Shown in pieces: positions 1 through 52,648 of a stretch of DNA of 64,000 nt. The notes under the pieces are model-generated. The model saw only the letters and a program-made list of their open reading frames with translations, was not told where the DNA came from and ran no database searches. Location of the stretch: the NCBI GenBank assembly GCA_020635395.1, contig JACJZV010000001.1:647545-711544 (forward strand). The letters run 5' to 3'. Positions within the stretch are counted from its first letter, which is position 1. The number at the start of each line of letters is the position of its first letter. Source of the DNA: Flavobacteriales bacterium. Its GTDB lineage: Bacteria > Bacteroidota > Bacteroidia > NS11-12g > UBA9320. The translations under genes were made by a program, and so were the position numbers.

Positions 1-150
1 AAAAGTAACTCTATTTTTCAACTATTTCAAAAAAGTTGCAATTTTAATCTTCTTATTATCAGCGAGTTAATTGTGTTTTGTTTTTGAGGTAAAAATCTAA
101 AATAGCGTTGAGGGTAGTTGTGCAACAGCTACCCGTGTTAGCAGTAGCAA
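1..150. repeat. Cassette-associated repeat A1. It is about 98% identical to 44683..44832 and lies immediately 3' (minus-strand sense) of the beta-lactamase gene
   Basis: Direct comparison of 1..150 with 44683..44832 shows only about 3 mismatches. It carries the internal 10-bp motif GTTGTGCAAC (117..126) and the terminal motifs cagctaccc and gttagcRgtag. Confidence 0.8.
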
Positions 151-153
151 TTC

Positions 154-960
154 TCATCTATCAGTTAGTTTGAGGTCGTTAAGGATTAAATAAACAATGT
201 CTATTCGAGCATTTGCAAAGTCCTTATTGTTTAAGTCAGCCGATTGAATGCAGTTAGCGAAATAATAAACTTTGTCTTTATTCTCAAGATAGCCAACATA
301 CCACCCAATATCTTTATTGTCTTGTCCGCCCCAACCAGTTTTTGCTCTAATTACATAATTCAATGTGTCCTTTGCAATCATTATATTTTTAACAATATCC
401 ATTGAACGCTTTGAAAAGGGAAGTTGGTTGTCGTGAAGTCGTTTTAAAAAGTCAATTTGTTGTTTGGGAGAAACACGAAGTCCACCAGTAAGCCAAAACT
501 TGTCTATGCCACCTGAAGTGTCAACGTTTCCATAGTTTGCTTTATCAAGCCAGTATTTCATTTGTTGTCCGCCAACTCGTTTTGCAAGTTCTTGATAATA
601 CCAAACTGTAGAATTTTTGAAAGCGGTCTTTAAGTCGTGGTCGCTATTCCAGTTTGGGTTTTGTCGGGTTACACTGTCCCAAGGAATTACAAAGTTCTCG
701 TCTTTAATTACTCCTGTCTCAAGTCCGATAAGCGAGTTACAAATTTTATAAGTCGAGGCAGGTGAAAAAGTTTGCTCGAATTGGTCTTTGTTGTAAAAAA
801 CATATTTGTCGTCTTGTGGGTCGTAAAGAACGAAAGAACCGCCAACATTAAATTGGTCGTAATATTTTTTAAAGTCGTCACGAATTTCTACCACCTGCTT
901 TTGCTTACAAGCTGTTAGTCCGAGAACCATTAAAGTCAAAATTATTATTGTCTTTTTCAC
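154..960 (-). CDS. Class D (OXA-family) beta-lactamase, lipoprotein-type signal peptide
   Basis: The 268-aa product has a lipoprotein-like N-terminus (LTAC). It has the class D active-site motifs STYK (S-x-x-K), STV (S-x-V), YGN and KTGWG plus a downstream W. Likely GTG start. Confidence 0.8.
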   Translation of the reverse strand: MKKTIIILTLMVLGLTACKQKQVVEIRDDFKKYYDQFNVGGSFVLYDPQDDKYVFYNKDQFEQTFSPASTYKICNSLIGLETGVIKDENFVIPWDSVTRQNPNWNSDHDLKTAFKNSTVWYYQELAKRVGGQQMKYWLDKANYGNVDTSGGIDKFWLTGGLRVSPKQQIDFLKRLHDNQLPFSKRSMDIVKNIMIAKDTLNYVIRAKTGWGGQDNKDIGWYVGYLENKDKVYYFANCIQSADLNNKDFANARIDIVYLILNDLKLTDR

Positions 961-964
961 TGTC

Positions 965-1045
965 GTTATATTGTTACTGCTAACGTTTTGCAGCTACCCG
1001 AAGGGCGGGGCTTTCGGAGCACTAATCTGTCAAGCTACGATAATG
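965..1045. repeat. Cassette-associated repeat C1 (module family C)
   Basis: The modules ttacYgcYaacgKtt, gcagctaccc and gggcgggKtttcggagcac are shared with 45270..45340 and 42605..42660. On the minus strand it reads GGGTAGCTG..GTTAGCAGTAA about 15 bp before the beta-lactamase start. Confidence 0.6.
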
Positions 1046-1050
1046 TTTAT

Positions 1051-2844
1051 TTATTGTACAACTGTTCCAATTCCCACTTCAGCCCCCGCTTTTGGCAAGG
1101 TGCTGTTAGCACCCGTTTTTATTTCTGTTAATTTGTCAACCAGGTCTTTCGGGAACATATTTAGTTTTCTTAATGCTTTAAACAAGGTCTTAAAATTAAT
1201 AATTGTGCTTGTGAAAATATTATTATAAACTTCATTCAATATCGTTTTTCCTCGTCTGTTCAATAACCATTTCGGATATAATAAAATTGTCTCACCAACA
1301 AATGACACTTCAATTCTTTCTGTTTCAGTCGCTGGGTCGAAATCAGGAAAGTATTTTTTTAATTCAGGTTCTACTATAGATATTATAGCGTCTGCGACTT
1401 TCTGTAAAGTTTCAGCAGGAAGCGATTTTAATTTGTATTCTTCGCCTACTGATAGCTTCAAACCCTCAACAGCTGGATTCTTTTCCTTGTCAATTAGTGC
1501 GGCATAAACAAGGATTGGATCAGCTAAATAATTTTCAATACTATATCTGTCTATTTTATAGACACCGTCAGATACGGCATTACCAGTGTCTGCGTCAATT
1601 AGTCCTTGAACAATATTTACTAATCCTGATTCTTGTAGCTTATTTACCCAATTCTGAACAACATCTTTGCCGCCTGATTTGTCTTTCGTAGATGCTGGAA
1701 TAAATACTAATGGAATATTTGCATCGATTTGATTTTCTGTTGTAAGTTGATTGTAAGCAAATGAATAAAATGAAACATCATCGTTGTCTTCAACAAGAAA
1801 ATACTTAGTTCCTTCACCTACATAAACCAATCCTGCTGTCAAGAGTGAAACAGAATGATTTTTTGAAGGGGATTTTCTAATTCGAGGTTCAACTCGTGAC
1901 ATTTCATAAATTGAATTATTGGGTGCAAGAATAACTGTTGAAGGAGAGTGGGTGGTCATTATTACTTGGACTCCAAATTTGTCAACAAGAACATTTTTGA
2001 TAACATTTAAAAACTGTTGAGACATTGATGGGTGCAGATGAGCATCAGGTTCGTCAAGTAATAATAATTTTGGAAATACTTTTTTTTCTTGGGAGTTGTA
2101 CAAATAAAACACTAATGAAATAAGTACTTTTTCTCCTGAAGACAAGTCATTAAAATTTATTTCCTCGTTTAATATTTGATGAGTAAGTTTTAATTGAAAG
2201 CCATCTCGAATTCCATTGTTTGAAGGGTCATTAACATCAAATGGTAATTTTGATTCTTTAATAATTTCTTTTAAAACAACCCACGGTTTTTCCCCGATTG
2301 ATTTTTTTATATTTTCTTCCGTTTCGTGTTTAGCCTGCAGTTCTATTTCGGATAACCTGTAATTATAAAAAACTTCACCAATCTTTTGACTTAGTTGGCT
2401 TTCCTGCTCAATTAATATCTCAGGAAAATATTCGTAAAATTCTTCTTTCGTTATGACATTGAATTGTTTCCCTGTTTTCTTAATAATTTCTTGGCATGCC
2501 CAAAACATTTTAATTTGTCCTTCTTGGTTTCTTTGATAGTTGCCACCTTTAAAGTTATTATAGTAACCATCCATCTGTTGCTGAATGGTAGAAAGATTAA
2601 CGTGTCCCGTATTTTGTAGTTGCCACTCTCCCTTAAGAAAAGTAACCTCATCTGGTTTGATGGATTTCCCTGTTATAACAACTCTTTCGGTAGTTCCTTG
2701 TTTATTGATAATCGTATTATGAATTAAATCTAATAGTTGCGATTTACCAGTTCCATTAGGTCCAGTTATTACAACGAAGTCAGGAATGTCTGTCCAGTTA
2801 AAACTTGTAATTGATTTGTATTTTTTGTCGAATTTTATTTCCAT
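1051..2844 (-). CDS. OLD-family ATP-dependent endonuclease (ABC-type ATPase plus C-terminal Toprim). Candidate anti-phage defence gene
   Basis: Walker A GPNGTGKS, Walker B LLLLDEPDAHLHP, a C-terminal Toprim-like LVEDNDD and IDADTG, and single-gene organisation. The start is trimmed from 2901 to the internal Met (MEIKFDK) at 2844. Confidence 0.7.
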   Translation of the reverse strand: MEIKFDKKYKSITSFNWTDIPDFVVITGPNGTGKSQLLDLIHNTIINKQGTTERVVITGKSIKPDEVTFLKGEWQLQNTGHVNLSTIQQQMDGYYNNFKGGNYQRNQEGQIKMFWACQEIIKKTGKQFNVITKEEFYEYFPEILIEQESQLSQKIGEVFYNYRLSEIELQAKHETEENIKKSIGEKPWVVLKEIIKESKLPFDVNDPSNNGIRDGFQLKLTHQILNEEINFNDLSSGEKVLISLVFYLYNSQEKKVFPKLLLLDEPDAHLHPSMSQQFLNVIKNVLVDKFGVQVIMTTHSPSTVILAPNNSIYEMSRVEPRIRKSPSKNHSVSLLTAGLVYVGEGTKYFLVEDNDDVSFYSFAYNQLTTENQIDANIPLVFIPASTKDKSGGKDVVQNWVNKLQESGLVNIVQGLIDADTGNAVSDGVYKIDRYSIENYLADPILVYAALIDKEKNPAVEGLKLSVGEEYKLKSLPAETLQKVADAIISIVEPELKKYFPDFDPATETERIEVSFVGETILLYPKWLLNRRGKTILNEVYNNIFTSTIINFKTLFKALRKLNMFPKDLVDKLTEIKTGANSTLPKAGAEVGIGTVVQ

Positions 2845-2861
2845 AGTTGTCTGTCTTAAAA

Positions 2862-2930
2862 TGGCAGCTAACATCCCTATATGCCCAATACAATAGTCCA
2901 ATTGTGCATATTTCCATTATCTATGCAACA
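2862..2930 (-). promoter_or_regulatory. Conserved array-head element H1. It is about 80% identical to 51812..51880 and placed about -18 to -86 relative to the first gene of array 1
   Basis: The blocks tagataatggaaatatgc, attgtattgggcatata and ggatgtta are shared with H2 at the same distance from the start codon of the first gene of array 2. It contains GTTAGCTGCC. Confidence 0.5.
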
Positions 2931-3326
2931 ATACATGCGACGCTGAAGATGTGGCTTCACCGCCAAACTCACACGGTCATGAGTTGTCTCATTCATCTGT
3001 CAAAAATATCTTTTTTCATAATAAATCCAAGCCTCTCCTTAATGACTTGTTGGTGGGTATTGCTAATTTTTTAAAGTGATGGTATAAAATTCCAATTTAC
3101 CCAACTCTATAAAGTCAATCGCACAAATCTTGATAAAGATTAAACGCTTTAAAATCAGCACACTAAATCCGTTATACCCATTTTCAAACGTTTTCAAGTG
3201 TTTTTATACGTATCTAAATGTTTTAAAAACCGATGGCACAAAATACCGCCCCAATCTTTGCAGTGTCGGAAATGGTTAAAACCCCACACCGACTTTTTTA
3301 AAGTAACATATTAATTTTTTAAACAC

Positions 3327-3665
3327 ATGAACACACTAAGAAACAGCGTACGATTGACAGGTCATTTGGGTGCTAACCCTGAGGTAAAAGAAGTAGCGGG
3401 CGGTAAAAAAATAGCTCGGTTTACGCTGGCCACCAACGAAACCTACCGCAAACAAGACGGCGAAAAAGTGACCGAAACCACCTGGCATCAGTTGTATGCC
3501 TGGGGAAAAACGGCTGAAATTGCCGAAAAATACCTCAAAAAAGGGCAAGAAATAAGCATTGAAGGCAAACTTACCAACCGCACTTGGGAAGACGAAAACG
3601 GCCACAAACGCAACATTACCGAAGTGCAGGTAAACGAGGTAATGATGTTTGGCAAAAAGGATTGA
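3327..3665 (+). CDS. ssb: Single-stranded DNA-binding protein (short form)
   Basis: The 112-aa product has an OB-fold SSB signature (TGHLGANPEV, FTLATNETYR, TTWHQLYAWGKTAE). Confidence 0.8.
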   Translation: MNTLRNSVRLTGHLGANPEVKEVAGGKKIARFTLATNETYRKQDGEKVTETTWHQLYAWGKTAEIAEKYLKKGQEISIEGKLTNRTWEDENGHKRNITEVQVNEVMMFGKKD

Positions 3666-3776
3666 GGCTTTTCGATTTTTTTTTGAACCATTAAGGCATT
3701 GAGGTAGTTAAGTCTGCGGATAAAATCTTATTGTACCTTAAAGCCTTAATGGTTTAGAACATTTAAGCTTTAAAAT

Positions 3777-4271
3777 TTATTCACTTCCCAATTTAAGCTC
3801 CTGCAACCGATTTATCAAGTTTTGGCCAAAAACTCCGGTGGCTATTACCACTCCGGCAGAGTCCACCAAATAGTTTTGAGGCAGGTAGTGGGGCAATTTC
3901 ATTTGGGTTAATAGCGGACTATCCCATTTGGCAGTGTCTATGGCATGTGTCGGCCATGTTATTCGGTCGTTTCTTATGGCTTTTTGCCACACCAAACTAT
4001 CGGTATCCAATGCGATGCTCACTATTTCAAAACCGTTTCCGTTTTTAAAGTTGGTGGTTTTGTATTGCTGATAGATGGTGTTTAATTCTCCGTTTTGTAT
4101 GCGGCATGGCAAACACCACGTACCCCAAAATTCTACCAAAATGAGTTTGCCTTTTATGCTGTCGGAAGCAATTTGATAATGCGTTTTTAGAGATTGAAAA
4201 TCGAAGGAGTGTTGGTTGTTTTGTGAAAAACTAAATAGCACTAAAAGCGGTATGACTGCCAACTTTTTCAT
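3777..4271 (-). CDS. TlpA-like thioredoxin-family thiol:disulfide oxidoreductase, secreted
   Basis: Signal peptide, a WCLPC CxxC motif, and about 160 aa. Confidence 0.7.
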   Translation of the reverse strand: MKKLAVIPLLVLFSFSQNNQHSFDFQSLKTHYQIASDSIKGKLILVEFWGTWCLPCRIQNGELNTIYQQYKTTNFKNGNGFEIVSIALDTDSLVWQKAIRNDRITWPTHAIDTAKWDSPLLTQMKLPHYLPQNYLVDSAGVVIATGVFGQNLINRLQELKLGSE

Positions 4272-5575
4272 TACAATCTTACAATGTCGGCACCGATAGC
4301 ATTCAACCGATGCTCGATGTTTTGATAGCCACGGTCTATTTGCTCAATGTTGTGAATGGTGCTGACCCCGTCGGCACTCATGGCGGCAATAAGTAGTGAA
4401 ACTCCTGCACGAATGTCGGGCGATGTCATTTGTATGCCTTTTAAATTTATGCGTCTGTCAAGCCCCATAACCGTTGCCCGGTGCGGGTCGCACAATATTA
4501 TTTGAGCACCCATGTCAATTAGGCTATCCACAAAAAATAAGCGGCTTTCAAACATCTTTTGATGTATCAACACATTGCCTTTTGCCTGCGTACACATTAC
4601 CAAGATAACACTCAACAAGTCAGGCGTTAGGCCAGGCCAAATAGCATCGGCAATGGTCATCATGCTGCCATCTATAAAACTTTCTATTTCGTAGTGTTCA
4701 TTATTAAACACCCGAATGTCGTCGTTTATTAATTCAAAATGCACACCTAATCGGCGGAAAGTTTCAGGGATTATTCCTAATTCCTTGTATTGCACATTTT
4801 TGATGGTTATGTCGGAATTGGTAAGAGCGGCCATGGCCATAAAACTGCCTATTTCAATCATATCGGGCAGCAAAGTGTGCGTGCATCCACCCAAATAATC
4901 AACCCCCTCAATGGTTAATAAATTTGAACCTACACCCGAAATTTTGGCTCCCATGCTGTTAAGCATTTTGCACAACTGTTGCAAATAGGGTTCGCAAGCG
5001 GCGTTGTATATGGTGGTAGTGCCTTTGGCCATGCTGGCGGCCATCACAATGTTGGCCGTTCCGGTCACCGATGCTTCATCCAGCAGCATATAGGTTCCGG
5101 TAAGTTTTTCGGCTTCTATCTCGTAAAAATTCTCATCGGGTAAAAAAGTAAATTTTGCACCCAAATTTTGAAACCCGATAAAGTGGGTGTCCAATCTTCG
5201 TCGGCCAATTTTATCACCACCGGGACTTGGGATATAACCTTTGCCAAAACGTGCCAACAAAGGTCCAATAATCATAACCGAACCCCGAATGCTTTTTGCT
5301 GTTTTTCTGAATTCGGCTGAGTTTAGATAGTCAAGGTCAATATTGTTTGATTCAAATCGGTAGTCGTTTTCGTTTAATTTTTCTACCGATACACCAAGAC
5401 CCCGCAACAGTTCAATAAGCCGGTTTACATCTCGAATGTTAGGAATGTTTTTTATAACAATTTCTTCGGGAGAAAGAAGCACAGCCGAAAGCACCTGAAG
5501 TGCCTCGTTTTTAGCTCCTTGCGGAATAATTTCGCCTTTAAGTTTTTTGCCTCCGGTTATTTTAAACGTTCCCAT
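4271..5575 (-). CDS. murA: UDP-N-acetylglucosamine 1-carboxyvinyltransferase
   Basis: 434 aa with an N-terminus (MGTFKITGGKKLKGEI..QGAKNEAL) typical of MurA/EPSP-fold enzymes. Confidence 0.85.
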   Translation of the reverse strand: MGTFKITGGKKLKGEIIPQGAKNEALQVLSAVLLSPEEIVIKNIPNIRDVNRLIELLRGLGVSVEKLNENDYRFESNNIDLDYLNSAEFRKTAKSIRGSVMIIGPLLARFGKGYIPSPGGDKIGRRRLDTHFIGFQNLGAKFTFLPDENFYEIEAEKLTGTYMLLDEASVTGTANIVMAASMAKGTTTIYNAACEPYLQQLCKMLNSMGAKISGVGSNLLTIEGVDYLGGCTHTLLPDMIEIGSFMAMAALTNSDITIKNVQYKELGIIPETFRRLGVHFELINDDIRVFNNEHYEIESFIDGSMMTIADAIWPGLTPDLLSVILVMCTQAKGNVLIHQKMFESRLFFVDSLIDMGAQIILCDPHRATVMGLDRRINLKGIQMTSPDIRAGVSLLIAAMSADGVSTIHNIEQIDRGYQNIEHRLNAIGADIVRL

Positions 5576-20941: not shown

Positions 20942-20950
20942 GTCTCTTTA

Positions 20951-21133
20951 TTATTTAATTTCTTTATGAACGGTTACTTTCTTTAAAATGGGGTTGTATT
21001 TTTTCAACTCCAAACGCTCGGTAGTGTTCTTTTTATTTTTGGTGGTAATGTAGCGAGAAGTGCCGGGCATACCGCTCGTTTTGTGCTCTGTGCACTCCAT
21101 TATCACTTGAACTCTGTTTCCTTTCTTTGCCAT
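20951..21133 (-). CDS. rpmG: 50S ribosomal protein L33
   Basis: 60 aa, [18 protein letters not shown]... Confidence 0.85.
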
Positions 21134-27513: not shown

Positions 27514-29826
27514 TTAATTTGCTAAGAACTCTTTAAGTTGCTCTGACCAGCCATTTTTCGAGAAAGCGTCAGCTTTGCCAATGGTGGTTTCTAATTCCAC
27601 TATTTGATCAGCGTTTAAAGCTGCCAACTGGGCATAAGTTGTATAACCCGCTTCATGGATTTTTTTCTCCAATGCAGGGCCAACACCGGCCAATTTTTTC
27701 ATATCATCAGCACCAGTGTTAGATTTAGCTGCTTTTTCTTTTTTTGGAGCAGGCTCATCAGAAGAAACTTTGTCTGATTTTTCCTTTTCCATTTTAGCCA
27801 ATTTTGCTTCGGCAGATTTTCTGTTTTCTGCTTCCATCTTGGCTTTAAGTTCTGCTAAACCGTCAAGCTCGCCGAGGGTAGAAACGTCGTTAGACTTGTT
27901 CAGTTTCTTAACCATTTTGCTGGCTTGTTTTGCTGATTTTTTCTTGGCCTCATCATCGCCGTCAATGCGGGCTCTTTCTTGCTCTTTCCAAATATCGGTA
28001 TGAGAAACAATGATTCTTTTTTGATCTTTGTTGAACTCAATGATTCTGAAATTCAAAACCTCATCAACTTTTACCGAAGTTTTATCTTCTTTTTTGATGT
28101 GTTTATTAGGAGCAAAACCTTCTACACCATAAGGAAGAGCAATGGTAGCACCCTTGTCGGTCATTTCAGTAACAGTTCCTTCGTGTTCCGAACCTTCGGT
28201 GAAAATGCTTTCAAATGTATCCCAAGGATTTTCGTCCAATTGTTTATGACCAAGGCTCAAACGTCTGTTTTCGCGGTCTATTTCAAGAACGATAACCTCT
28301 AACTCTTCTCCTTTTTTAGTAAACTCGGCAGGATGCTTAATTTTTTTGCTCCAGCTCAAATCACTTACGTGTACTAAGCCATCAACACCTTCTTCCAATT
28401 CTACAAACAAACCGTAGTTGGTAAGATTTCTAACCACACCTTTGTGTTTGCTTTCAATTGGATATTTAGCTTCGATGTTTTCCCATGGGTCAGGAGTAAG
28501 TTGTTTTATGCCAAGAGACATTTTGTGTTCATCTTTTTCAAGAGTAAGCACCACAGCTTCTACTTCATCGCCCACTTGCATAAAGTCTTGAGGTGTTCTC
28601 AAATGTTGAGACCAAGACATTTCTGAAACGTGAACTAAACCTTCTATACCCGGAGCAACTTCGATAAATGCACCGTAATCGGCCACAGTAACTACTTTAC
28701 CTTTTACTTTAGACCCAACTTGAATGTCGGCACTCAAATCAGCCCATGGGTGAGGAGTAAGTTGTTTTAAGCCAAGAGAAATTCGTTTTTTATCGTCATC
28801 GAAGTCAAGCACCACAACGTTGATTTTTTGGTCAAGTTGCAATACTTCTTCCGGATGGTTGATTCTGCCCCAAGATACGTCAGTAATGTGAAGCAATCCG
28901 TCTAAACCACCAAGGTCGATGAACACACCAAAAGAAGTCATGTTTTTAACAACACCTTCAAGCACTTGACCTTTTTCAAGTCTTGAAAGGATTTCTCCTT
29001 TTTGGGCTTCAATATCATCTTCGATAAGAGCTTTGTGCGAAATAACAACGTTTTTGAAGGCTTCGTTAATCTTAACAACCTTAAATTCCATTGTTTGACC
29101 AACGTATTGGTCGTAGTCGCGAATTGGTTTAACGTCGATTTGAGAACCTGGCAAGAATGCGTCAAGTCCGTTAACATCAACTACCAAACCACCTTTGGTT
29201 CTAGATTTTACTAAACCTCGAACAATTTCGCCGGTTTCTTGAGCTTTGGTAACCATATCCCAAGAAGTTTCAGCTAATGCTTTTCTTCTTGAAAGAACTA
29301 ATTGACCAAGAGCATCTTCTGTTTCCACTACATAAACTTCAACCTCATCGCCAACTTTTAAATCAGGTTGGTTTTTGAACTCTGTTCTACCAACCAAACC
29401 ATCCGATTTAAAGTTAACATCAACAACCACGTATTTTTTGGTCATTGACACAACTTTACCTTTAATGATTGAACCAGCTTCGATGGTGTTGAACGTTTGA
29501 GAATACAATCCCATCAATTCATTTTTGTTAGAATCGTCATACTGTCCAAAGCCTTCTTTGTCCATAGACCAATCAAATGCATTAGCATCGTGAACCGGAT
29601 TGTCGTTAATTTCGACTTTAGGTCTTCTAACTTCTGCTACTTCGTCTTCCTCATCTTCGTCAGATGTGTTCACAAAGTCTTCGGTAATTGTTTCTGTAAT
29701 TTCGTTTTGTTCGGTTTGTTCCGCCGTAACATCCTGGGTTTCGGCAGCATCAAGAGATACTTGTTCGTTCTCTAATTCGTTGTTTTGTTCTGTCAAATCA
29801 ATGTGTCCTCCTTTGAGCGGCGGCAA
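27514..29826 (-). CDS. rpsA: 30S ribosomal protein S1 with an acidic N-terminal extension and a C-terminal extension containing a helix-hairpin-helix-like module
   Basis: Multiple S1 OB-fold repeats, and 770 aa against a typical length of about 560 to 600 aa. The C-terminal 150 aa are Lys/Glu-rich and are followed by GVGPALEKKIHEAGYTTYAQLAAL. Confidence 0.8.
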   Translation of the reverse strand: MPPLKGGHIDLTEQNNELENEQVSLDAAETQDVTAEQTEQNEITETITEDFVNTSDEDEEDEVAEVRRPKVEINDNPVHDANAFDWSMDKEGFGQYDDSNKNELMGLYSQTFNTIEAGSIIKGKVVSMTKKYVVVDVNFKSDGLVGRTEFKNQPDLKVGDEVEVYVVETEDALGQLVLSRRKALAETSWDMVTKAQETGEIVRGLVKSRTKGGLVVDVNGLDAFLPGSQIDVKPIRDYDQYVGQTMEFKVVKINEAFKNVVISHKALIEDDIEAQKGEILSRLEKGQVLEGVVKNMTSFGVFIDLGGLDGLLHITDVSWGRINHPEEVLQLDQKINVVVLDFDDDKKRISLGLKQLTPHPWADLSADIQVGSKVKGKVVTVADYGAFIEVAPGIEGLVHVSEMSWSQHLRTPQDFMQVGDEVEAVVLTLEKDEHKMSLGIKQLTPDPWENIEAKYPIESKHKGVVRNLTNYGLFVELEEGVDGLVHVSDLSWSKKIKHPAEFTKKGEELEVIVLEIDRENRRLSLGHKQLDENPWDTFESIFTEGSEHEGTVTEMTDKGATIALPYGVEGFAPNKHIKKEDKTSVKVDEVLNFRIIEFNKDQKRIIVSHTDIWKEQERARIDGDDEAKKKSAKQASKMVKKLNKSNDVSTLGELDGLAELKAKMEAENRKSAEAKLAKMEKEKSDKVSSDEPAPKKEKAAKSNTGADDMKKLAGVGPALEKKIHEAGYTTYAQLAALNADQIVELETTIGKADAFSKNGWSEQLKEFLAN

Positions 29827-41851: not shown

Positions 41852-41977
41852 ATTATTGTATTTTAAAATTAACTATTTACACCAATTTGCCATTCGCAAT
41901 ATAGTTTTATTAAGTCACTCGATTTCAAATTTTTTTTGGTAGATTTTAAGATAACTGTTCTGCTCAGGTTGCAAGCT

Positions 41978-42020
41978 CCTCCTTATGGGGAGAGCCGCCT
42001 ACTCGTTTGGCAGCTACCCT
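41978..42020. repeat. Module W/Y copy (cctccttatggggagagccgcctactcg..cagctaccc) at the distal end of array 2
   Basis: The same 25-bp W module terminates the B elements at 46264, 47782, 48583 and 49305. Confidence 0.6.
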
Positions 42021-42601
42021 TCTTTTATCATTTTATAGATATTCGATTGATTAAACTGTTCTCTCCATTTCTCAATTCTATCAGTCTCACTTTCAATTTT
42101 TTGAATCTGAAATGATTCCACAAAACCAATTTTTAACCGAATTTCTTTTCCACCTTCATCTAATGGTATTTGAACAAAACAATCATGCTCATCACAAGTA
42201 ATTTTTGACTTAATTAAAGCTGAATCAATTTTGTTTGACAAGAATTCTTTTCCAAATTCCATTTGATAGGATAGCACTTTTAACGAATCTATTGTATTGT
42301 TACTGGTGTATATTGAATCTAATGATTGACGAGACAATTTGTGTTCTCCTAATCGTTTGTATATCTCGTATCTTAACAGGTTTGCCTTTTCATTTACTTG
42401 CATAACACAAAGGCCACAGGTGCAATAACCACACGTTTCAGCTTCCGTTATTTGCTTCAATGCTTTTTCGTTTTTTCCCTTAGTAACGTTTTTCTCTGCT
42501 TTATCAAGTAACATAAATGAATTCTGACCATAGCTCAACTGATAAAATACTATGAGTGTCACTATGGCGAAGGATCTGAGATATTTTACTTCTATTTTCA
42601 T
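42014..42601 (-). CDS. Hypothetical secreted protein (cassette-like array gene)
   Basis: Signal peptide. No recognised domain. Confidence 0.4.
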   Translation of the reverse strand: MKIEVKYLRSFAIVTLIVFYQLSYGQNSFMLLDKAEKNVTKGKNEKALKQITEAETCGYCTCGLCVMQVNEKANLLRYEIYKRLGEHKLSRQSLDSIYTSNNTIDSLKVLSYQMEFGKEFLSNKIDSALIKSKITCDEHDCFVQIPLDEGGKEIRLKIGFVESFQIQKIESETDRIEKWREQFNQSNIYKMIKEG

Positions 42602-42604
42602 TTT

Positions 42605-42660
42605 TTTAATTTCTAAGACGTTTTAGGGCTTTGTGTTCAGGCAGTTTCGCGGGCCATTGG
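42605..42660. repeat. Module C copy (cgttttagggctttgtgttcaggcagtttcgcggg)
   Basis: About 75% identical to 45293..45328 and 985..1022. Confidence 0.5.
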
Positions 42661-42697
42661 GGTGATTTAACCAGTGAACCACGGTAGGTGTTGTGAG

Positions 42698-43438
42698 TTA
42701 TTTTAACTTCTTAAATACATAATCCCAGTCTTTATAAGTCCAATCATTTTCACCGATAAATTCATGGTCCGCACATTCATAAATTTCATTTACATTGAAA
42801 ATCTGATTATTTTCTCTTGCTTCATCCCAAAGGTTCATTAGCCCAGATTTATCCTTTATTTTTTCAAACTTATTTTTAACATTTTTAAAACAAACTAAAT
42901 CTCCAAACTCTGAATTTCCACATGGATGATAATTTGAGTATTTACAGGATATACAGGTTTTAATTTCATAATTTTCAGGGAGCGTCTTTTGCATATCAAT
43001 CATAAGATATTCAAAATTATACATATTCCTTGCAAATAAATTCTCTCCAAAAACAGTCTTAAAAGTTGCTTCTTTTATAACCAACTCAACACCGTAATCT
43101 TTTTTATTTTCAATACTTTTTTCCAATTTTAAAATCAGTTCGCCATTAAAATTATTCTTTAAGTGGCCAATGATTATAGGTATCTCAATTTCTAATTCAA
43201 AATTTGTTAACTCATTGTAAGAATTAAATTCAAAATTACCCTTAGTTTCTTTTGTTTCTAATGACTCAAACTCACGTCCTTCAAAGATTGTATTCCTTAA
43301 TTCTAATCTTAAATTGCTTCCATGCGAAATAACCTCAGATTTGAGCGAACCGAATTTGTCAGTATATTTTACGAGATATTTTTTTAAACACATGCTCTTA
43401 CTCTTTATTTTTCTGGCATTAACTATACTGTAAAACAC
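42698..43438 (-). CDS. Hypothetical protein, AT-rich (cassette-like array gene)
   Basis: ORF only. Confidence 0.4.
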   Translation of the reverse strand: MFYSIVNARKIKSKSMCLKKYLVKYTDKFGSLKSEVISHGSNLRLELRNTIFEGREFESLETKETKGNFEFNSYNELTNFELEIEIPIIIGHLKNNFNGELILKLEKSIENKKDYGVELVIKEATFKTVFGENLFARNMYNFEYLMIDMQKTLPENYEIKTCISCKYSNYHPCGNSEFGDLVCFKNVKNKFEKIKDKSGLMNLWDEARENNQIFNVNEIYECADHEFIGENDWTYKDWDYVFKKLK

Positions 43439-43689
43439 GGAGAAGCCAAATCATCTAAACGTACTTTATTTAAAATTCTGTACGAATTTCTCCTCTTCAG
43501 TGCATGGTGTAAATATAGTTCGAAAGATAAGAAATTGATTGTCAATTTGATATAAATTATTTCCGTCTGGAACAGGTGCATCTAAATCGGGGAAGCCACT
43601 ATTCGGCGACGTCGCCAACATTGCTATTATTATCACAAAAGGTCAAGTTAGCACGTGTCCTCCAGTGGTGGAAACAGCCGTATTCTATA

Positions 43690-43775
43690 CCCCAATCCCG
43701 ATAGCTATCGGGATTGGGGTGAGAGGTACACTCTCATCATTTATGGGGAGAGCCGCCTACTTGATTATGTGCTGT
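43690..43775. repeat. Composite repeat made of a perfect 30-bp palindrome V (ccccaatcccgatagctatcgggattgggg), then a truncated B 3' half, then the W module
   Basis: The palindrome was read directly. The gaggtacactctcatcatttatggggagagccgcctacttg part matches the B-element 3' end. Confidence 0.7.
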
Positions 43776-43782
43776 TATTTTT

Positions 43783-44511
43783 TTATTCATATGGTTTCCA
43801 GTTTTTGTCTTTGGGTTCCTTGTAATTTGCAGGTCTTACATTTCGCTTCATTTCTTCATCACAAGCTCCGAACTCAATAAAGTTTTTTTGTGCCTGTCTT
43901 AACGAAATTGTGTTTGCTCCACCTTCATAATATGGGTCGTCAAGTTGGATTGGGTCATCTTCCCAAAAGCATACAGGGCAAATATCATAAGTTCCATTTG
44001 GTTTCTCCGTAAACGTTTTATGTCCACAACAAGGACAAGCAAATTTTGAATTAACTGTCAATATTAGTAATGCCTTTTCCAATGCATCTTTGTCAAAACC
44101 GATTGATGGTCTTGTTGCAACCCAGCGTTCTTTTATATACTCTGGCAATGCGTTTATTGATTGGTCATCATCAATAATAACATAGTTCTGTCCCTCTCCT
44201 TTTTTTTCAACCCATTCTTTAATTTCGGTTCCTCTGTCTAATAATTGACTTATTTCTGTTTTGTTATTTAGTTTTGATATTGTTTCAAAATTCAATCCTC
44301 TTAATCTAAAAATCTCTTTCCATTTAGTTTCGTCATAATTTATTCTATGAGTTGTTGTCAAAACTATCGAAGCATTTGTCCTTTTGTGAAGGATTAATAA
44401 GTTTTCAAGTGCTTTTTTATTTAGTTTCATAAATCCGTCAGAATATATTTCTGCCTGTCGCCAAGTAGGTGTCGTTTCCAAAACTCCGTCTATGTCTAAA
44501 AGTATTGTCAT
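43783..44511 (-). CDS. HAD-like hydrolase domain fused to a cysteine-rich CPCC domain
   Basis: N-terminal DxD HAD motif (LLDIDGVL) and a C-terminal CPCCGHKTF...CPVCFWEDD cysteine-rich CPCC-type module. Confidence 0.5.
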   Translation of the reverse strand: MTILLDIDGVLETTPTWRQAEIYSDGFMKLNKKALENLLILHKRTNASIVLTTTHRINYDETKWKEIFRLRGLNFETISKLNNKTEISQLLDRGTEIKEWVEKKGEGQNYVIIDDDQSINALPEYIKERWVATRPSIGFDKDALEKALLILTVNSKFACPCCGHKTFTEKPNGTYDICPVCFWEDDPIQLDDPYYEGGANTISLRQAQKNFIEFGACDEEMKRNVRPANYKEPKDKNWKPYE

Positions 44512-44682
44512 TCTGTTTTGTGTCGGTCTTTATAATAGCACATAACTTTTTGCCGCTTGCCGCAGTGGGGGATTTCGAAGCACTTCACTTTCAACCAAGC
44601 ACAAATGTTGATAGAATCACAGCACTTGATTTAACCACGTCAACCCCCATTGCGGCAAACGACTGTGCCTGTTGCACAACTC
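44512..44682. repeat. ORF-less structured spacer element with a 12-bp inverted repeat (ccgcaGtggggg / cccccaTtgcgg) and module Z (atttcgaagcac)
   Basis: Read directly. No credible ORF. It lies between repeat A2 and the CPCC gene. Confidence 0.5.
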
Positions 44683-44832
44683 AAAAGTAACTCTATTTTT
44701 CAACTATTTCAAAAAAGTTGCAATTTTAATCTTCTTATTACCAGCGAGTTAATTGTGTTTTGTTTTTGAGGTAAAAATCTAAAATAGCGTTGAGGGTAGT
44801 TGTGCAACAGCTACCCGTGTTAGCGGTAGTGT
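44683..44832. repeat. Cassette-associated repeat A2, about 98% identical to 1..150
   Basis: Direct comparison. It is bounded by the inverted 10-mers GTTGCACAAC (44671..44680) and GTTGTGCAAC (44799..44808). Confidence 0.85.
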
Positions 44833-45267
44833 TTACGTCATGTGTTTAAGGAAAAGTGTAATGGTTTCATATGTCAATTCGTTATCCTTGATTATATAGT
44901 TGTCAAACCAGTCGTTGTTACTTAGTGTTTGTGCTACCAACCAAGATTCTTTGCCAAGATATAAAAATCGTTTGCCGCCAACTTGTATTAACCATGAACC
45001 AAAATCCTTCTCGTGATAAGATTCTTTTGTAATCACCTTGTCTGTTAGTCGTAATAAGCAAAAGTCGAAAAGAAATTTATTCCAATTGCTTGAAACTTTT
45101 CTTTCAATGTCAAACGCATAACTTATAGCCTTGTCAATCGTATTATCAGTTGCATTGTCAACCAATTCTGCTTTTCGCCCAAATTTGTCAGTAAGAGTAA
45201 CTTTAAAAACTCCGTTCGAAATTTCGTCAATTTTAGTTGTCCAACCTGGTAGTGATTTTGTGTTCAT
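44833..45267 (-). CDS. Hypothetical protein (cassette-like array gene)
   Basis: ORF only. Confidence 0.4.
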   Translation of the reverse strand: MNTKSLPGWTTKIDEISNGVFKVTLTDKFGRKAELVDNATDNTIDKAISYAFDIERKVSSNWNKFLFDFCLLRLTDKVITKESYHEKDFGSWLIQVGGKRFLYLGKESWLVAQTLSNNDWFDNYIIKDNELTYETITLFLKHMT

Positions 45268-45269
45268 AG

Positions 45270-45400
45270 TGTCTGTCTAACATTACCGCCAACGGTTTCG
45301 GGCTTTGCGTTCGGGCGGGTTTCGGAGCACAAAGTTTCAATTTATTACTAAAGTTTATTAGAAGCACAAAGCTCCATCCCGATAGCTATCGGGATTGCAC
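45270..45400. repeat. Composite repeat made of module C (ttaccgccaacggtttcgggctttgcgttcgggcgggtttcggagcac) plus palindrome V copy (atcccgatagctatcgggatt)
   Basis: Related to 965..1045 and 43690..43719. Confidence 0.6.
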
Positions 45401-45440
45401 GTCAACCCGCATGACGCAACCCGTGTTATAGCCAGTTTTT

Positions 45441-45797
45441 CTATTCATTGGTCAACATTACTATTGTCTTATTTTTTGTCTCTGCACATTTATTTTCTGT
45501 CGGCATATTAGTTTTTATTTTCAATATGTCGTCATTTCTTTTAATGCTAAAGTTCATAACATTATAGATTGCGTCATTTAAGTAATATTCAAATAATTTG
45601 GTCGTGTCATTTCCATAATTTGCAAAAAATTCAAATCTGTAATTGTCAATCTCAGTCTGATAAACGCTATAAAAAATGTGTTCATTAGGTTCGTTTGAAA
45701 TTGTTCTCGTCACAATGAGGTTGTTCTGTTCAAAATAGGAACAGCCAACTATGAATAGTAAAAATATCAATGCATATTTTGGTATTTTTTTATTCAT
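45441..45797 (-). CDS. Hypothetical lipoprotein (cassette-like array gene)
   Basis: Signal peptide with the lipobox LFIVGCS. Confidence 0.4.
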   Translation of the reverse strand: MNKKIPKYALIFLLFIVGCSYFEQNNLIVTRTISNEPNEHIFYSVYQTEIDNYRFEFFANYGNDTTKLFEYYLNDAIYNVMNFSIKRNDDILKIKTNMPTENKCAETKNKTIVMLTNE

Positions 45798-46047
45798 ATA
45801 CTTTCGCTCCTTTAAAAATGTCTACAAATGTTGACCAGTCTGGTTTGTCCGCATTTACATTTAGTTTCATATTGTCGTAATAGCCTTGAATGTCTTCAGT
45901 AAACGCACCCAACGCTTCCAGAAAATCGGTCAAAGTTTTGTTTTCCCAATTTTCAGGATTGGCTAAAAAGTCTTTGCGTAATAAGCCAAGAAACTTAATG
46001 AAATTTTGTCTGTCCGTTACTTTAAAGTCGTTAAGTGTGTCGTTCAT
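45790..46047 (-). CDS. Hypothetical small protein (85 aa). It overlaps the next gene by 8 bp with no intervening repeat
   Basis: ORF only. It forms a two-gene unit with 45441..45797. Confidence 0.35.
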   Translation of the reverse strand: MNDTLNDFKVTDRQNFIKFLGLLRKDFLANPENWENKTLTDFLEALGAFTEDIQGYYDNMKLNVNADKPDWSTFVDIFKGAKVYE

Positions 46048-46165
46048 AAAATTGGCTATAACGTGCCAGCACTAAATGTTGTGCCACTTTTTTCACTATT
46101 TGTTGTCAGTATAAATATACAATTTTATTTCTAATTCCCTGTCTGTCAGGCATAACATTTAGTGC

Positions 46166-46292
46166 ACGTGTGTGCCGCCAATGGCAAACACCCTCCAAGT
46201 TTAGTTGAAAGGAGAGTGATAACCAATAGTTATGTTGGATTAGCTAATGAGGTGTACACTCCTCATTTATGGGGAGTTCCGCCTACTCGATT
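46166..46292. repeat. B-family structured repeat copy B1
   Basis: gtgtgccgccaatggcaaacaccctcc..aggagagtgataaccaatagttatgttggattagctaatgaggtgtacactcctcatttatggggag..cgcctactcg. Internal hairpins are ataac/gttat, ttagctaa and aatgagg/cctcatt. Confidence 0.8.
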
Positions 46293-46298
46293 ATGGGC

Positions 46299-47513: not shown

Positions 47514-47682
47514 TCACAAAGTATCATTTTTTACCTCTTTTTCAGAGGTTTTTTCGACTTCGTTGGCCTCCAAAATTAATAAAGAAAATTCAGAAATGAG
47601 AAATTGAATTAGACTCATTTCGGAATTTTTATTTTTGGATTGCCCATAACGGTGAGTGTACGCGTAGTTTGCACGTTTAGGG

Positions 47683-47816
47683 CTACACCGTGTGTGTGTG
47701 CCGCCAATGGCAAACACCCTCCAGAAAGGAGAGTGATAACCAATAGTTATGTTGGATTAGCTAATGAGGTGTACACTCCTCATTTATGGGGAGAGTCGCC
47801 TACTCGTTTGTGTGTA
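47683..47816. repeat. B-family repeat copy B2. It has an 11-bp deletion relative to B1 and is flanked by the imperfect inverted repeat ctacaccgtgtg / tgtgtgtag
   Basis: Direct comparison. Its 3' flank encodes the last 4 codons of the upstream ORF. Confidence 0.8.
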
Positions 47817-48414: not shown

Positions 48415-48482
48415 TTCTAATTACACACGACGGTTCGTATATGGTGTCGTAGCATCCCGCAGGGTGCTATGTATTATATACC

Positions 48483-48618
48483 ATGTGTGTGCCGCAAATG
48501 GCAAACACTCTCCAAATTTAGCTGAAAGGAGGGTGATAACCAATAGTTATATCGGATTAGTTGATGAGGTGCACACTCCTCATTCGTGGCGAGAGCCGCC
48601 TAATGGATTGTGTGTATT
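48483..48618. repeat. B-family repeat copy B3, the most diverged
   Basis: About 85% identical to B1. Confidence 0.7.
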
Positions 48619-49047: not shown

Positions 49048-49211
49048 TCTTTACAGTTTATCTTAGTGTTATGCATACGCTGCGATTACGCATAACGGTA
49101 TAGGGTAAGAAACGTAGGGCATTTCGAAGCAATTTCCTGTTCACCGAAACGGAACTTGCTAAGAGCCCAAAACTTGCGGAAACCACTGCCCGCCCTATGT
49201 TTTATACCCAT

Positions 49212-49345
49212 TGTGCGTGCCGCCAATGGTAAACGCCCTCCAAATTTAGTTGAAAGGAAAGTGATAACCAATAGTTATGTTGGAATAGCTAAATAGGTAC
49301 ACTCTCCTCATTTATGGGGAGAGCCGCCTACTCGATTAGGAGCAT
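49212..49345. repeat. B-family repeat copy B4
   Basis: About 90% identical to B1. Confidence 0.8.
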
Positions 49346-49350
49346 CATAA

Positions 49351-51803: not shown

Positions 51804-51811
51804 CTGTTTTT

Positions 51812-52641: not shown

Positions 52642-52648
52642 TACAAAC

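What the first reader, a model, noticed from the sequence alone, without database searches (positions are those of the whole stretch)
1051..2844. Stand-alone OLD-family ATPase/Toprim nuclease (class 1-like) as a probable anti-phage defence gene
Walker A/B ABC-type ATPase plus C-terminal Toprim (E..DxD) without a partner helicase or HNH gene matches single-gene OLD systems. Its location in a repeat-delimited unit next to a resistance gene suggests horizontal acquisition.
Basis: partly seen in the sequence, partly recalled or inferred. Interest (0 to 1): 0.55.

Follow-up and report, generated by a model that had tools for sequence, protein, structure and literature searches.

The report
Fused PARIS defence gene, integron cassette
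The gene is a single-polypeptide version of the known PARIS anti-phage system (an ABC ATPase sensor fused to an AriB-type Toprim nuclease), and in this uncultured Flavobacteriales genome it is carried as an integron-type gene cassette directly upstream of a class D beta-lactamase cassette.

Summary
Window 1051-2844 (minus strand) is an intact 597-aa ORF with invariant Walker A, ABC signature, Walker B and H-loop motifs, plus a C-terminal E..D / DxD Toprim-like domain. There is no helicase or HNH partner, and a class D beta-lactamase gene lies next to it.

The "class 1 OLD" label is not supported. The C-terminal domain matches only Pfam DUF4435 and the PADLOC AriB/AriAB models. Its only significant PDB fold match is AriB, and nothing matches Toprim_Old or GajA. 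The best whole-protein PADLOC hit is the fused PARIS model AriAB (5.7e-32). This is therefore a merged ariAB gene (PARIS, also called OLD class 4), a known kind.

The "repeat-delimited unit" is real and specific: the gene is an integron-type cassette.
- It starts at a G|TT junction (GTTAGCT, 2872->2866) and ends in a ~134-nt attC-like site (978-1111).
- A covariance model built without that site finds it at E 7e-11.
- Homologues 65-89% identical at protein level lie beside sites of the same family in other Bacteroidota. In five of seven loci checked, the cassette's first bases still complement its own inverse core.
- The bla gene is the next cassette.
- No integrase lies in the window.

A mobile-integron AriAB cassette (Brc59) is already published. 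Verdict: new member of a known kind, moderate interest.

The parts
1051..2844 (-). Merged ariAB (PARIS) coding sequence, 597 aa
   Evidence: ORF. PADLOC AriAB 5.7e-32. Pfam AAA_15 2e-17, AAA_21 3e-17 and DUF4435. 982 homologues of about 580 aa in Bacteroidota. dN/dS 0.05-0.12.
1870..2844 (-). AriA-like ABC ATPase domain (aa 1-325), with a helical insertion at about aa 84-197 between Walker A and the signature motif
   Evidence: Pfam AAA_21 covers aa 23-303 and AAA_15 covers aa 141-302. Model m1e048f880717 has pLDDT 81.5. Its fold matches are PtuA, Ts OLD, GajA, SMC and Rad50 heads.
2740..2763 (-). Walker A GPNGTGKS (K34)
   Evidence: G28, N30, G31, G33 and K34 are invariant in 28 sequences.
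2128..2145 (-). ABC signature LSSGEK
   Evidence: L234-E238 are invariant.
2044..2067 (-). Walker B LLLLDEPD (D264, E265), followed by the D-loop AHLHP
   Evidence: D264-P272 are invariant.
1945..1956 (-). H-loop TTHS (H299)
1810..1869 (-). Inter-domain linker (aa 326-345). Model confidence is low here (aa 335-338 have pLDDT below 50).
1111..1809 (-). AriB-like DUF4435 / Toprim nuclease domain (aa 346-578). Proposed metal-binding residues: E352 (1789-1791), D356 (1777-1779), D417 (1594-1596), D419 (1588-1590), E437 (1534-1536).
   Evidence: Pfam DUF4435 on aa 350-441. PADLOC AriB 2.7e-7 and AriAB 1.4e-9 on the domain alone. Foldseek top and only significant hit is 8v46_D, AriB. E352, D356 and D417 are invariant, and D419 and E437 are at least 90% conserved, in 20 sequences sharing only 29-48% identity with the window domain.
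1054..1113 (-). C-terminal tail of about 20 aa (GANSTLPKAGAEVGIGTVVQ), encoded by the 5' part of the attC site. It is not part of the conserved protein.
   Evidence: The tail is absent from most homologues. pLDDT is below 50 for aa 580-597. Nucleotide homology to homologues lacking the tail stops at 1103-1115.
978..1111 (-). attC-like recombination site of the ariAB cassette: R'' TGCTAAC (1111->1105) ... R' GTTAGCA (984->978), with the cassette boundary at G|TT
   Evidence: Model R1, built without this site or its L001/L012 homologues, scores it 63 bits, E 7.4e-11, full length. The homologous sites in L012 and L001 fold as imperfect hairpins (z -5.41 and -2.20). This copy is weaker (z -1.23).
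2866..2872 (-). 5' cassette junction GTTAGCT (G|TTAGCT), 22 nt upstream of the ATG
   Evidence: Nucleotide homology to the Vicingaceae and Saprospiraceae copies begins at 2872. The intra-window repeat shared with 51824-51884 ends at 2869.
2869..2929 (-). ~60-nt 'head' sequence preceding the first cassette, repeated (87%) in front of the second array at 51824-51884. It is a candidate attI-like site of unknown status.
154..960 (-). Next cassette: class D (OXA-type) beta-lactamase, a lipoprotein-type precursor with STYK, YGN and KTG motifs
   Evidence: NF012161 272.9 bits, above the cut-off of 250. The cassette start GTTAGCAGTA (984->975) is the exact reverse complement of its own R'' TACTGCTAAC (146->137), 10/10.
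1..143 (-). R'' of the bla attC (143->137), followed by a ~150-nt MITE-like insertion. The rest of the attC lies beyond the window's left end.
   Evidence: Window 1-147 is 98.6% identical to window 44683-44829. The complete site is seen in L015 19373-19668.

Best explanation
The gene encodes a merged PARIS system (AriAB). An AriA-type ABC ATPase (sensor and regulator) and an AriB-type DUF4435 Toprim nuclease (effector) are joined in one 597-aa chain.

Proposed mechanism, by analogy with the two-gene E. coli system:
1. The ATPase part oligomerises and keeps the nuclease domain inactive.
2. A phage protein, typically an anti-restriction or other counter-defence protein, binds the ATPase in an ATP-dependent manner.
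3. The resulting conformational change lets the Toprim domains pair up and cut host tRNA.
4. Translation stops and the infection is aborted.

Because the two parts are covalently linked here, activation must work by rearrangement around the flexible linker (aa ~326-345) and not by release of a free AriB.

The gene is carried as the first cassette of an integron-type array, with an OXA-type beta-lactamase as the second cassette. It has spread as such a cassette among several Bacteroidota lineages.

Shown: domain composition, conserved catalytic motifs, purifying selection, cassette boundaries, the attC family and the cross-lineage distribution. Inferred: the defence phenotype, the trigger, the tRNA target and the mode of activation.
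For: Family assignment:
- PADLOC AriAB 5.7e-32 is the top hit.
- Pfam gives AAA_15/AAA_21 plus DUF4435. This is the domain pair that Rousset et al. used to define PARIS, including single-gene fusions (PMC9122126).
- The C-terminal domain alone hits only AriAB, AriB and one weak unrelated model.
- The C-terminal model (pLDDT 83.7) has AriB, 8v46_D, as its only significant PDB match.
- The acidic residues E352, D356, D417, D419 and E437 are conserved to at least 90% across homologues 29-48% identical to the window domain. Their spacing (+4, +65, +2) resembles E26/D30/D88/E90 of E. coli AriB (PMC11464382).
- The ATPase motifs are invariant, and dN/dS is 0.05-0.12.

Known biology of the family:
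- Merged ariAB clades are described.
- The mechanism of two-gene PARIS is established.
- A mobile-integron cassette, Brc59, is an AriAB homologue and reduced HK544 prophage production more than 1e7-fold.

Cassette status:
- Junctions lie at G|TT.
- Across 17 cassettes, the first bases of each cassette are complementary to its own inverse core at 108 of 119 variable positions, against a permuted mean of 63.7. None of 100,000 permutations reaches the observed value.
- Among homologous ariAB cassettes this pairing is kept through compensatory changes.
- The attC stem shows 14 of 16 pairs with compensatory changes.
- An independent covariance model hits window 978-1111 at E 7e-11 and finds 5-16 sites in each of the three arrays L001, L010 and L012.

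Horizontal transfer:
- The host HisS has no relative above 68% identity other than its own genome. AriAB has named relatives at 75-85% identity in Chryseobacterium, Vicingaceae, Thalassobellus and Flavobacterium, and unnamed metagenomic relatives up to 92%.
Against: - There is no experiment on this protein or on any close relative.
- HMM profiles of the C-terminal domain do not reach E. coli AriB in the PDB by sequence, so the residue-by-residue equivalence with AriB rests on motif spacing and not on an alignment.
- The Foldseek match to AriB has low global TM-scores (0.32/0.29).
- On the full protein, Pfam DUF4435 scores 24.4 bits, below the gathering score of 27. It only just reaches it (27.1) on the isolated domain.
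- The ATPase part (about 325 aa) is much shorter than AriA (464 aa), so the hexameric propeller architecture and trigger pores of E. coli AriA may not be conserved.
- A covalently fused effector cannot be released, so the published activation mechanism cannot apply literally.
- This copy's attC folds no better than shuffled sequence (z -1.23).
- No integrase is present in the window, so present-day mobility in this genome is unproven.
Confidence: 0.75

Rival explanations
1. Class 1 OLD nuclease. This would be a stand-alone P2 Old / Thermus scotoductus OLD-type enzyme whose Toprim domain degrades DNA (an ATP-stimulated exo/endonuclease) in response to, for example, RecBCD inhibition.
For: It has the same overall ATPase-then-Toprim order in one polypeptide and no partner gene. 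The whole-protein fold search lists Ts OLD 6p74 at E 4.7e-8, and the sequence search lists it at E 0.002. Both matches run through the ATPase region.
Against: Nothing matches Pfam Toprim_Old at E<=10 on the isolated C-terminal domain. The C-terminal fold search finds no OLD or GajA Toprim in the top 50, while AriB is the single significant hit. The PADLOC ranking puts AriAB first and GajA only at 1.2e-13, confined to aa 166-317.
Confidence: 0.07
2. An orphan or re-purposed component of another AAA_15/21-Toprim system (retron type I-B effector, AbiL, MADS mad3/4). It would have lost its partner, or would need partners encoded elsewhere, and so would be inactive or act differently on its own.
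For: PADLOC ATPase-Toprim_I-B scores 4.7e-27 over aa 21-444, and mad3 scores 8.1e-21 over the ATPase.
Against: There is no reverse transcriptase, msr/msd-like RNA or methyltransferase in the cassette or beside it. The same single-gene unit is bounded by its own recombination sites in five further genomes with unrelated neighbours. Strong purifying selection acts on the whole length. The C-terminal domain alone matches the AriAB and AriB models and, far more weakly, PDC-M38B (0.0052), but not the retron model.
Confidence: 0.06
3. Primarily an addiction or stabilisation module of the cassette array. This would be a fused toxin (Toprim RNase) and antitoxin (ATPase) that penalises loss of the array, with phage defence secondary or absent.
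For: PDB depositors label AriA an 'antitoxin' (8v45). Activated AriB arrests growth.
Against: A covalent fusion gives no differential stability between toxin and antitoxin, which classic post-segregational killing needs. The tested integron AriAB cassette Brc59 protected against phage. The gene is the first cassette, not embedded deep in the array.
Confidence: 0.07

Closest known systems
Merged PARIS (ariAB single-gene fusions; 'merged 1/2' clades of Burman et al. 2024; PARIS_merge models of DefenseFinder/PADLOC)
   Same: It has an AAA_15/21 ABC ATPase followed by a DUF4435 Toprim domain in one chain. The top PADLOC hit is the AriAB model. The catalytic acidic residues and ATPase motifs are conserved.
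   Different: It has not been placed in the published tree, so it is unknown which merged clade it belongs to. It is compact: 597 aa against roughly 770 aa for E. coli AriA plus AriB. The last ~20 aa are supplied by the attC site.
Two-gene PARIS of E. coli B185 (AriA 464 aa + AriB 305 aa; PDB 8UX9, 8V45-8V49)
   Same: The domain families are the same. The C-terminal model's only significant fold match is AriB. It presumably uses the same logic, in which the ATPase senses a phage protein and the Toprim RNase cuts tRNA.
   Different: It is fused, so the effector cannot dissociate. The ATPase is about 140 aa shorter, so the IS1/IS2 and pore regions are probably different. Sequence identity is too low for HMM detection against the PDB chains in the nuclease part, and the ATPase matches only around the signature/Walker B region.
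Brc59 (gcu59), an AriAB homologue carried as a class 1 mobile-integron cassette (Kieffer et al., bioRxiv 10.1101/2024.07.02.601719)
   Same: It is an AriAB-type defence gene packaged as an integron cassette. This shows that the combination exists and is functional.
   Different: Brc59 comes from the mobile integrons catalogued in INTEGRALL, with a canonical IntI1/attI1 platform. Here the cassette sits in a chromosomal, integrase-less array of an environmental Flavobacteriales MAG with a different attC family. Sequence similarity to Brc59 was not tested.
Class 1 OLD nucleases (P2 Old, Thermus scotoductus OLD, PDB 6P74)
   Same: It is a single polypeptide with an ABC ATPase followed by Toprim. 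It belongs to the same broad OLD-like group.
   Different: The nuclease domain is DUF4435/AriB-type, not Toprim_Old. There is no sequence or fold match of the C-terminal domain to OLD.
Sedentary chromosomal integron / CALIN cassette arrays carrying streamlined defence systems (Darracq et al., bioRxiv 10.1101/2024.07.02.601686)
   Same: It shows co-oriented short ORFs, each followed by a ~130-nt hairpin site with conserved AAC...GTT, cassette junctions at G|TT, and a compact defence gene.
   Different: The host phylum is Bacteroidota, where integrons are reported as rare in complete genomes (PMC9024848). No intI lies next to either array. The arrays begin at a shared 60-nt sequence beside ssb and grpE.

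Membership tests
PARIS (AriA/AriB, merged form) | ABC ATPase of the AAA_15 / AAA_21 type with intact Walker A, signature, Walker B and H-loop | tested here: met
   AAA_15 scores 64.3 bits (cut-off 32.1) and AAA_21 scores 64 bits (cut-off 27). The motifs are invariant in 28 sequences.
PARIS (AriA/AriB, merged form) | DUF4435 (PF14491) domain in the same protein or an adjacent gene | tested here: met
   It scores 27.1 bits on the isolated domain against a gathering score of 27, which is borderline, and 24.4 bits on the full protein. This is supported by PADLOC AriB 2.7e-7 and AriAB 1.4e-9 on the domain alone. Many homologues carry precomputed PF14491.
PARIS (AriA/AriB, merged form) | Match to a fused AriAB profile above the detection threshold (Rousset et al. 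used 80 bits for AAA_15+DUF4435) | tested here: met
   PADLOC PDLC02981 AriAB scores 109.2 bits, E 5.7e-32, and is the top-ranked model. This is PADLOC's profile and not necessarily the identical DefenseFinder HMM.
PARIS (AriA/AriB, merged form) | Toprim acidic residues equivalent to AriB E26, D30, D88, E90 and E122 | tested here: inconclusive
   E352, D356, D417, D419 and E437 are conserved with similar spacing. No residue-level alignment to E. coli AriB could be obtained: the HMM searches of the PDB miss AriB, and Foldseek gave only summary scores.
PARIS (AriA/AriB, merged form) | AriB-like fold of the effector domain | tested here: met
   8v46_D (AriB) is the only PDB hit with E<=0.001 (4.4e-5, probability 1.00) over 256 aligned columns. 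Global TM-scores are low at 0.32/0.29.
PARIS (AriA/AriB, merged form) | Trigger-dependent activation, tRNA cleavage and abortive infection | not testable with these tools
   Requires experiments.
Class 1 OLD nucleases | OLD-type Toprim domain (Pfam Toprim_Old PF20469) C-terminal to the ATPase | tested here: not met
   No such hit at E<=10 on the C-terminal 260 aa. No OLD or GajA Toprim appears among the top 50 fold matches of the C-terminal model.
Class 2 OLD / Gabija | Adjacent UvrD-like helicase (GajB) | tested here: not met
   The neighbours are ssb and bla. There is no helicase ORF within the cassette or beside it.
Retron type I-B effector (class 3 OLD) | Adjacent reverse transcriptase and msr-msd ncRNA | tested here: not met
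   There is no RT ORF and no Rfam family in the window.
Integron gene cassette | A 3' attC site: an imperfect hairpin with conserved inverse core ...AAC and core GTT... | tested here: met
   Window 978-1111 runs from TGCTAAC to GTTAGCA. Model R1, built without it, scores it 63 bits, E 7.4e-11. In the family stem, 14 of 16 pairs show compensatory changes. Relatives fold at z -3.1 to -5.4. This copy's own fold is weak (z -1.23). IntegronFinder's canonical attC model could not be run.
Integron gene cassette | Cassette boundary at G|TT, with the cassette's first bases complementary to its own inverse core | tested here: met
   The homology breakpoints lie at 2872 and 981. Own-pair complementarity is 108/119 against 63.7 when permuted, with 0 of 1e5 permutations reaching it. 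ariAB cassettes score 10/10, 10/10, 9/10, 9/10 and 9/10 in five other genomes and 8/10 here. bla scores 10/10.
Integron gene cassette | Array of co-oriented cassettes | tested here: met
   The order is ariAB, bla, TspO, a hypothetical gene and DUF1877 in L015. A second array lies at 41.9-51.8 kb. Searches show an array of more than a dozen cassettes in Chryseobacterium gotjawalense.
Complete integron | Adjacent intI tyrosine recombinase and attI | tested here: not met
The genes beyond both array heads are ssb and grpE/dnaJ. The arrays therefore qualify at most as CALIN-like. The rest of the MAG could not be searched.

The most novel reading that the evidence does not exclude
Bacteroidota may hold a large, under-recognised pool of integron-type cassettes, defined by a distinct ~130-nt attC family, that moves between families and orders. 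Here the pool was seen in Chryseobacterium, Vicingaceae, Saprospiraceae, Bacteroidales and this Flavobacteriales MAG, with cassette junctions but no detected attC site in Lutibacter and Thalassobellus. The cassettes may insert at integrase-less ~60-nt 'head' sites next to housekeeping genes, served by an integrase encoded in trans or by a non-canonical recombinase. In that case a compact AriAB and an OXA-type beta-lactamase would be co-circulating cassettes. The attC sites are themselves colonised by two miniature elements, of ~130 nt and ~150 nt, that insert at the inverse core.
Probability: 0.3. Interest if true: 0.6.

Novelty: new member of a known kind. Interest (0 to 1): 0.4.

Why it matters
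Public records name this protein family only 'AAA family ATPase' or 'ATP-binding protein'. Recognising it as a fused PARIS system adds a widespread Bacteroidota lineage to a defence family studied almost only in E. coli. It also offers a naturally minimal version (597 aa) in which the sensor and effector cannot separate. That makes it a useful test of how activation works without release of AriB.

The cassette context links phage defence and beta-lactam resistance in the same recombination-driven array in an environmental Flavobacteriales genome. It also documents integron-type arrays in a phylum where they are reported as rare. This bears on where resistance and defence cassettes originate.

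Tried and rejected
- phmmer and profile searches of the PDB with the whole protein matched only through the ATPase signature/Walker B region. They could not discriminate between AriA, PtuA and OLD.
- Two C-terminal-domain profiles (A5 narrow, A6 broad) did not reach AriB in the PDB.
- The whole-protein Foldseek search was dominated by ABC/SMC heads.
- Representatives of about 280 aa that looked like stand-alone AriB also match the end of the ATPase in fused profiles. They are probably fragments, so they were not used as evidence.
- ARAGORN and Rfam found nothing in the window.
- The sigma-70 promoter and terminator scan was at chance level.
- DNA folding of the window's own ariAB attC and of the bla-downstream segment was not better than shuffles.
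- The exact protein is not on record in the contig index. The source genome was reached through HisS instead.
- The genome-contig scan returned only 5 loci.
- I first suspected that the ORFs at 52054-53770 might be an integrase. They are GrpE and DnaJ.
- I first took the ~130-nt repeats at 46-49 kb for attC sites. They are insertions inside attC inverse cores.
- The literature search for integrons in Flavobacteriia/Chryseobacterium gave nothing specific.
Full report
**Observation.** Window 1051-2844 on the minus strand is an intact ORF of 597 aa starting at an ATG.
- A 28-sequence alignment of full-length relatives (57-89% identity) shows M1 and all nucleotide-binding motifs invariant: Walker A GPNGTGKS (aa 28-35), ABC signature LSSGEK (234-239), Walker B/D-loop LLLLDEPDAHLHP (260-272) and H-loop TTHS (297-300).
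- The same holds for the C-terminal acidic motifs VEDxDD (351-356), IDxD (416-419) and RYSIENYL (433-440).
- dN/dS against five homologues is 0.05-0.12.
- The neighbours are ssb (divergent, 3327-3665) and a class D beta-lactamase at 154-960 (NF012161, 272.9 bits against a cut-off of 250). There is no helicase, HNH or RT gene.
- G+C is 0.30-0.36 over the gene against 0.40-0.45 in the housekeeping genes to the right.

**What the protein is.**
- Pfam gives AAA_15 and AAA_21 over aa 23-303 and DUF4435 over aa 350-441.
- PADLOC ranks the fused PARIS model AriAB first (5.7e-32, 109 bits), followed by ATPase-Toprim_I-B, AriA, mad3 and PtuA. GajA matches only within the ATPase.
- The C-terminal 260 aa alone match only DUF4435 (27.1 bits, exactly at Pfam's gathering score) and a very weak DUF5644 in Pfam. 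In PADLOC they match only AriAB (1.4e-9), AriB (2.7e-7) and a weak PDC-M38B. Nothing matches Toprim_Old.
- An AlphaFold model of the whole protein (pLDDT 81.5) shows two domains joined by a low-confidence linker. Its fold matches are ABC/SMC-type heads such as PtuA, Ts OLD and GajA.
- A separate model of the C-terminal domain (pLDDT 83.7, pTM 0.83) has a single significant PDB match: AriB in the AriA-AriB complex (8v46_D, E 4.4e-5, probability 1.00). The next hit is at E 7.8e-3 with probability 0.16, and no OLD or GajA Toprim appears in the top 50. The global TM-score of the AriB match is low (0.32/0.29).
- Sequence profiles of the domain do not reach AriB in the PDB. The equivalence of E352/D356/D417/D419/E437 with AriB E26/D30/D88/E90/E122 (PMC11464382) therefore rests on conservation and spacing, not on an alignment.
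- These residues stay invariant or at least 90% conserved in 20 sequences that share only 29-48% identity with the window domain.
- A search of 1.84 billion representatives with the C-terminal profile finds 1,200 clusters. Most of the best 150 are proteins of 530-750 aa with the domain at the C terminus, so the fusion is the rule in this lineage.

**Relation to what is known.**
- Burman et al. describe two merged ariAB clades. They quote the Dot et al. classification, in which P2 Old-like single genes are class 1 and PARIS is class 4.
The gene is a merged PARIS.
- In the two-gene system, an AriA hexamer sequesters AriB. A phage protein (Ocr, Ptr1/2) binds AriA in an ATP-dependent way. [quoted passage not shown]
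- For a covalent fusion, I infer the same logic with activation by rearrangement around the linker instead of dissociation. The shorter ATPase (about 325 aa against 464 aa) suggests a different trigger-binding surface.

**The 'repeat-delimited unit'.**
- Nucleotide homology (82%) with a Vicingaceae genome covers only window 981-2872, with unrelated genes on both sides.
- Homologues that lack the last ~20 aa lose homology at 1103-1115.
- The upstream breakpoint falls on the G of GTTAGCT (2872->2866). The downstream segment runs from TGCTAAC (1111->1105) to GTTAGCA (984->978).
- In Chryseobacterium gotjawalense, the 85%-identical homologue sits in a run of more than a dozen co-oriented small ORFs. 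Most are followed by a ~130-nt site that begins with ...AAC and ends with GTT.... The bases after G|TT at the start of such a cassette are the reverse complement of that cassette's own inverse core.
- Over 17 cassettes, 108 of 119 variable positions are complementary against 63.7 for permuted pairings, and none of 100,000 permutations reaches the observed value. The pairs were partly picked by a best-match scan, so the number is somewhat inflated.
- Among homologous ariAB cassettes the pairing is kept through compensatory changes: GTTAGCACCC/GGGTGCTAAC, GTTAGCCACC/GGTGGCTAAC and GTTGGCATTC/AAATGCCAAC. The match is 8/10 in the window copy.
- The sites fold as long imperfect hairpins, with z -3.1 to -5.4 in Chryseobacterium. 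The ariAB site there has a 7-bp R box, a 4-nt spacer, a bulged base and a long stem.
- An RNAalifold consensus has 16 pairs, 14 of them with compensatory changes.
- A covariance model built without the ariAB sites finds window 978-1111 at 63 bits (E 7.4e-11). It finds five more sites in the window and 5-16 in each of the three arrays L001, L010 and L012, all on the gene strand.
- These are the defining features of integron gene cassettes and attC sites.
- The window's own ariAB attC has decayed (z -1.23).
- The last ~20 residues of the protein are encoded by the attC and are disordered in the model.

**Genome context.**
- The window is 100% identical to contig JAWKNP010000003.1 of GCA_041391645.1, a 'Flavobacteriales bacterium' MAG.
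- Beyond the window's left end the array continues: ariAB, bla, TspO, a 234-aa hypothetical gene and DUF1877.
- ariAB is the first cassette. It is preceded by a ~60-nt sequence (2869-2929) that recurs at 87% identity in front of a second array at 41.9-51.8 kb.
- The genes beyond both heads are housekeeping genes (ssb; grpE/dnaJ). No IntI-like ORF is detectable in the window or the loci. The arrays are therefore CALIN-like, and current mobility in this genome is unproven.
- The host's HisS has no relative above 68% identity apart from its own genome. AriAB has named relatives at 75-85% identity in Chryseobacterium, Vicingaceae, Thalassobellus and Flavobacterium, and unnamed metagenomic relatives up to 92%. 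This fits horizontal spread of the cassette.

**Novelty.**
- Integron cassettes are known to carry streamlined defence systems (Darracq et al.).
- A mobile-integron cassette, Brc59, is an AriAB homologue with strong activity against HK544 (Kieffer et al.).
- Integrons are listed for Bacteroidota in reviews but were nearly absent from complete genomes in the IntegronFinder 2 survey.
- The finding is therefore a new member of a known kind. Its side interest lies in the Bacteroidota cassette pool, the integrase-less heads and the miniature elements that colonise the attC sites.

**Confidence.**
- About 0.75 that this is a PARIS-type, trigger-activated Toprim nuclease defence gene.
- About 0.85 that it is, or recently was, an integron-type cassette.
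- The specific tRNA target and the activation mode are inference only.

Noticed in passing
window 154-960 (-): A class D (OXA-type) beta-lactamase with a lipoprotein-like signal peptide. It is itself a gene cassette: its start GTTAGCAGTA and its own inverse core TACTGCTAAC are perfectly complementary (10/10). It is not assigned to any named OXA family, since all NCBIfam 'exception' models score far below their cut-offs.
   Followed up: partly
window ~41,900-51,830 (-), attC hits at 44540-44670, 45287-45431, 49090-49217, 49925-50054 and 51180-51310: A second array of at least 11 co-oriented cassettes between housekeeping genes. The products are mostly hypothetical or DUF proteins: DUF6304, HAD_SAK_2 + Cys_rich_CPCC, Reg_prop repeats and a weak DUF6278 match.
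   Followed up: partly
window 2869-2929 and 51824-51884: A ~60-nt sequence (87% identical) lies immediately upstream of the first cassette of both arrays and ends in the G|TTA junction. It is followed by ssb and by grpE/dnaJ, not by an integrase. It could be an attI-like site, a secondary insertion site or a remnant; which one is unresolved.
   Followed up: partly
window 1-136 and 44683-44818; L015 ~20945-21095: A ~150-nt MITE-like element with terminal inverted repeats GTTGCACAAC / GTTGTGCAAC is inserted directly after the inverse-core AAC of three different attC sites. The window copies are 98.6% identical. It explains the long repeat at the window's left end.
   Followed up: partly
window 46168-46295, 47693-47825, 48467-48625, 49195-49343; partial copies at 43723-43798 and 41976-42014: A family of ~130-nt direct repeats (81-90% identical) sits inside the inverse core of attC sites (after ...TAA). 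Each copy contains several hairpins (RNA fold z -2.4 to -2.9). There is no Rfam match at E<=0.1. Its nature is unknown.
   Followed up: partly
window 2845-2874: The public gene call for this protein starts at an ATG at 2874 (607 aa). That ATG lies just upstream of, and overlaps, the cassette junction (ATGTTAGCT). Alignment with homologues shows the real start is the ATG at 2844.
   Followed up: yes
L016 (Logan contig SRR12358675_1672662), end corresponds to window ~3001: An independent assembly of the same region stops about 70 nt before the 60-nt head. This could be an assembly break at the repeated head, or a sign of strain heterogeneity in cassette content.
   Followed up: no
L001 (Vicingaceae CP129492) 1-4938: A four-gene block (DNA methylase, HATPase_c_3 protein and two small ORFs) is followed by an attC hit at 5077-5208. 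It may be a multi-gene defence-type cassette in the same array as the ariAB homologue.
   Followed up: no
window 28482-28555 and 28743-28816: An internal 75-nt direct repeat (81% identical) lies within the 770-aa ORF 27514-29826.
   Followed up: no
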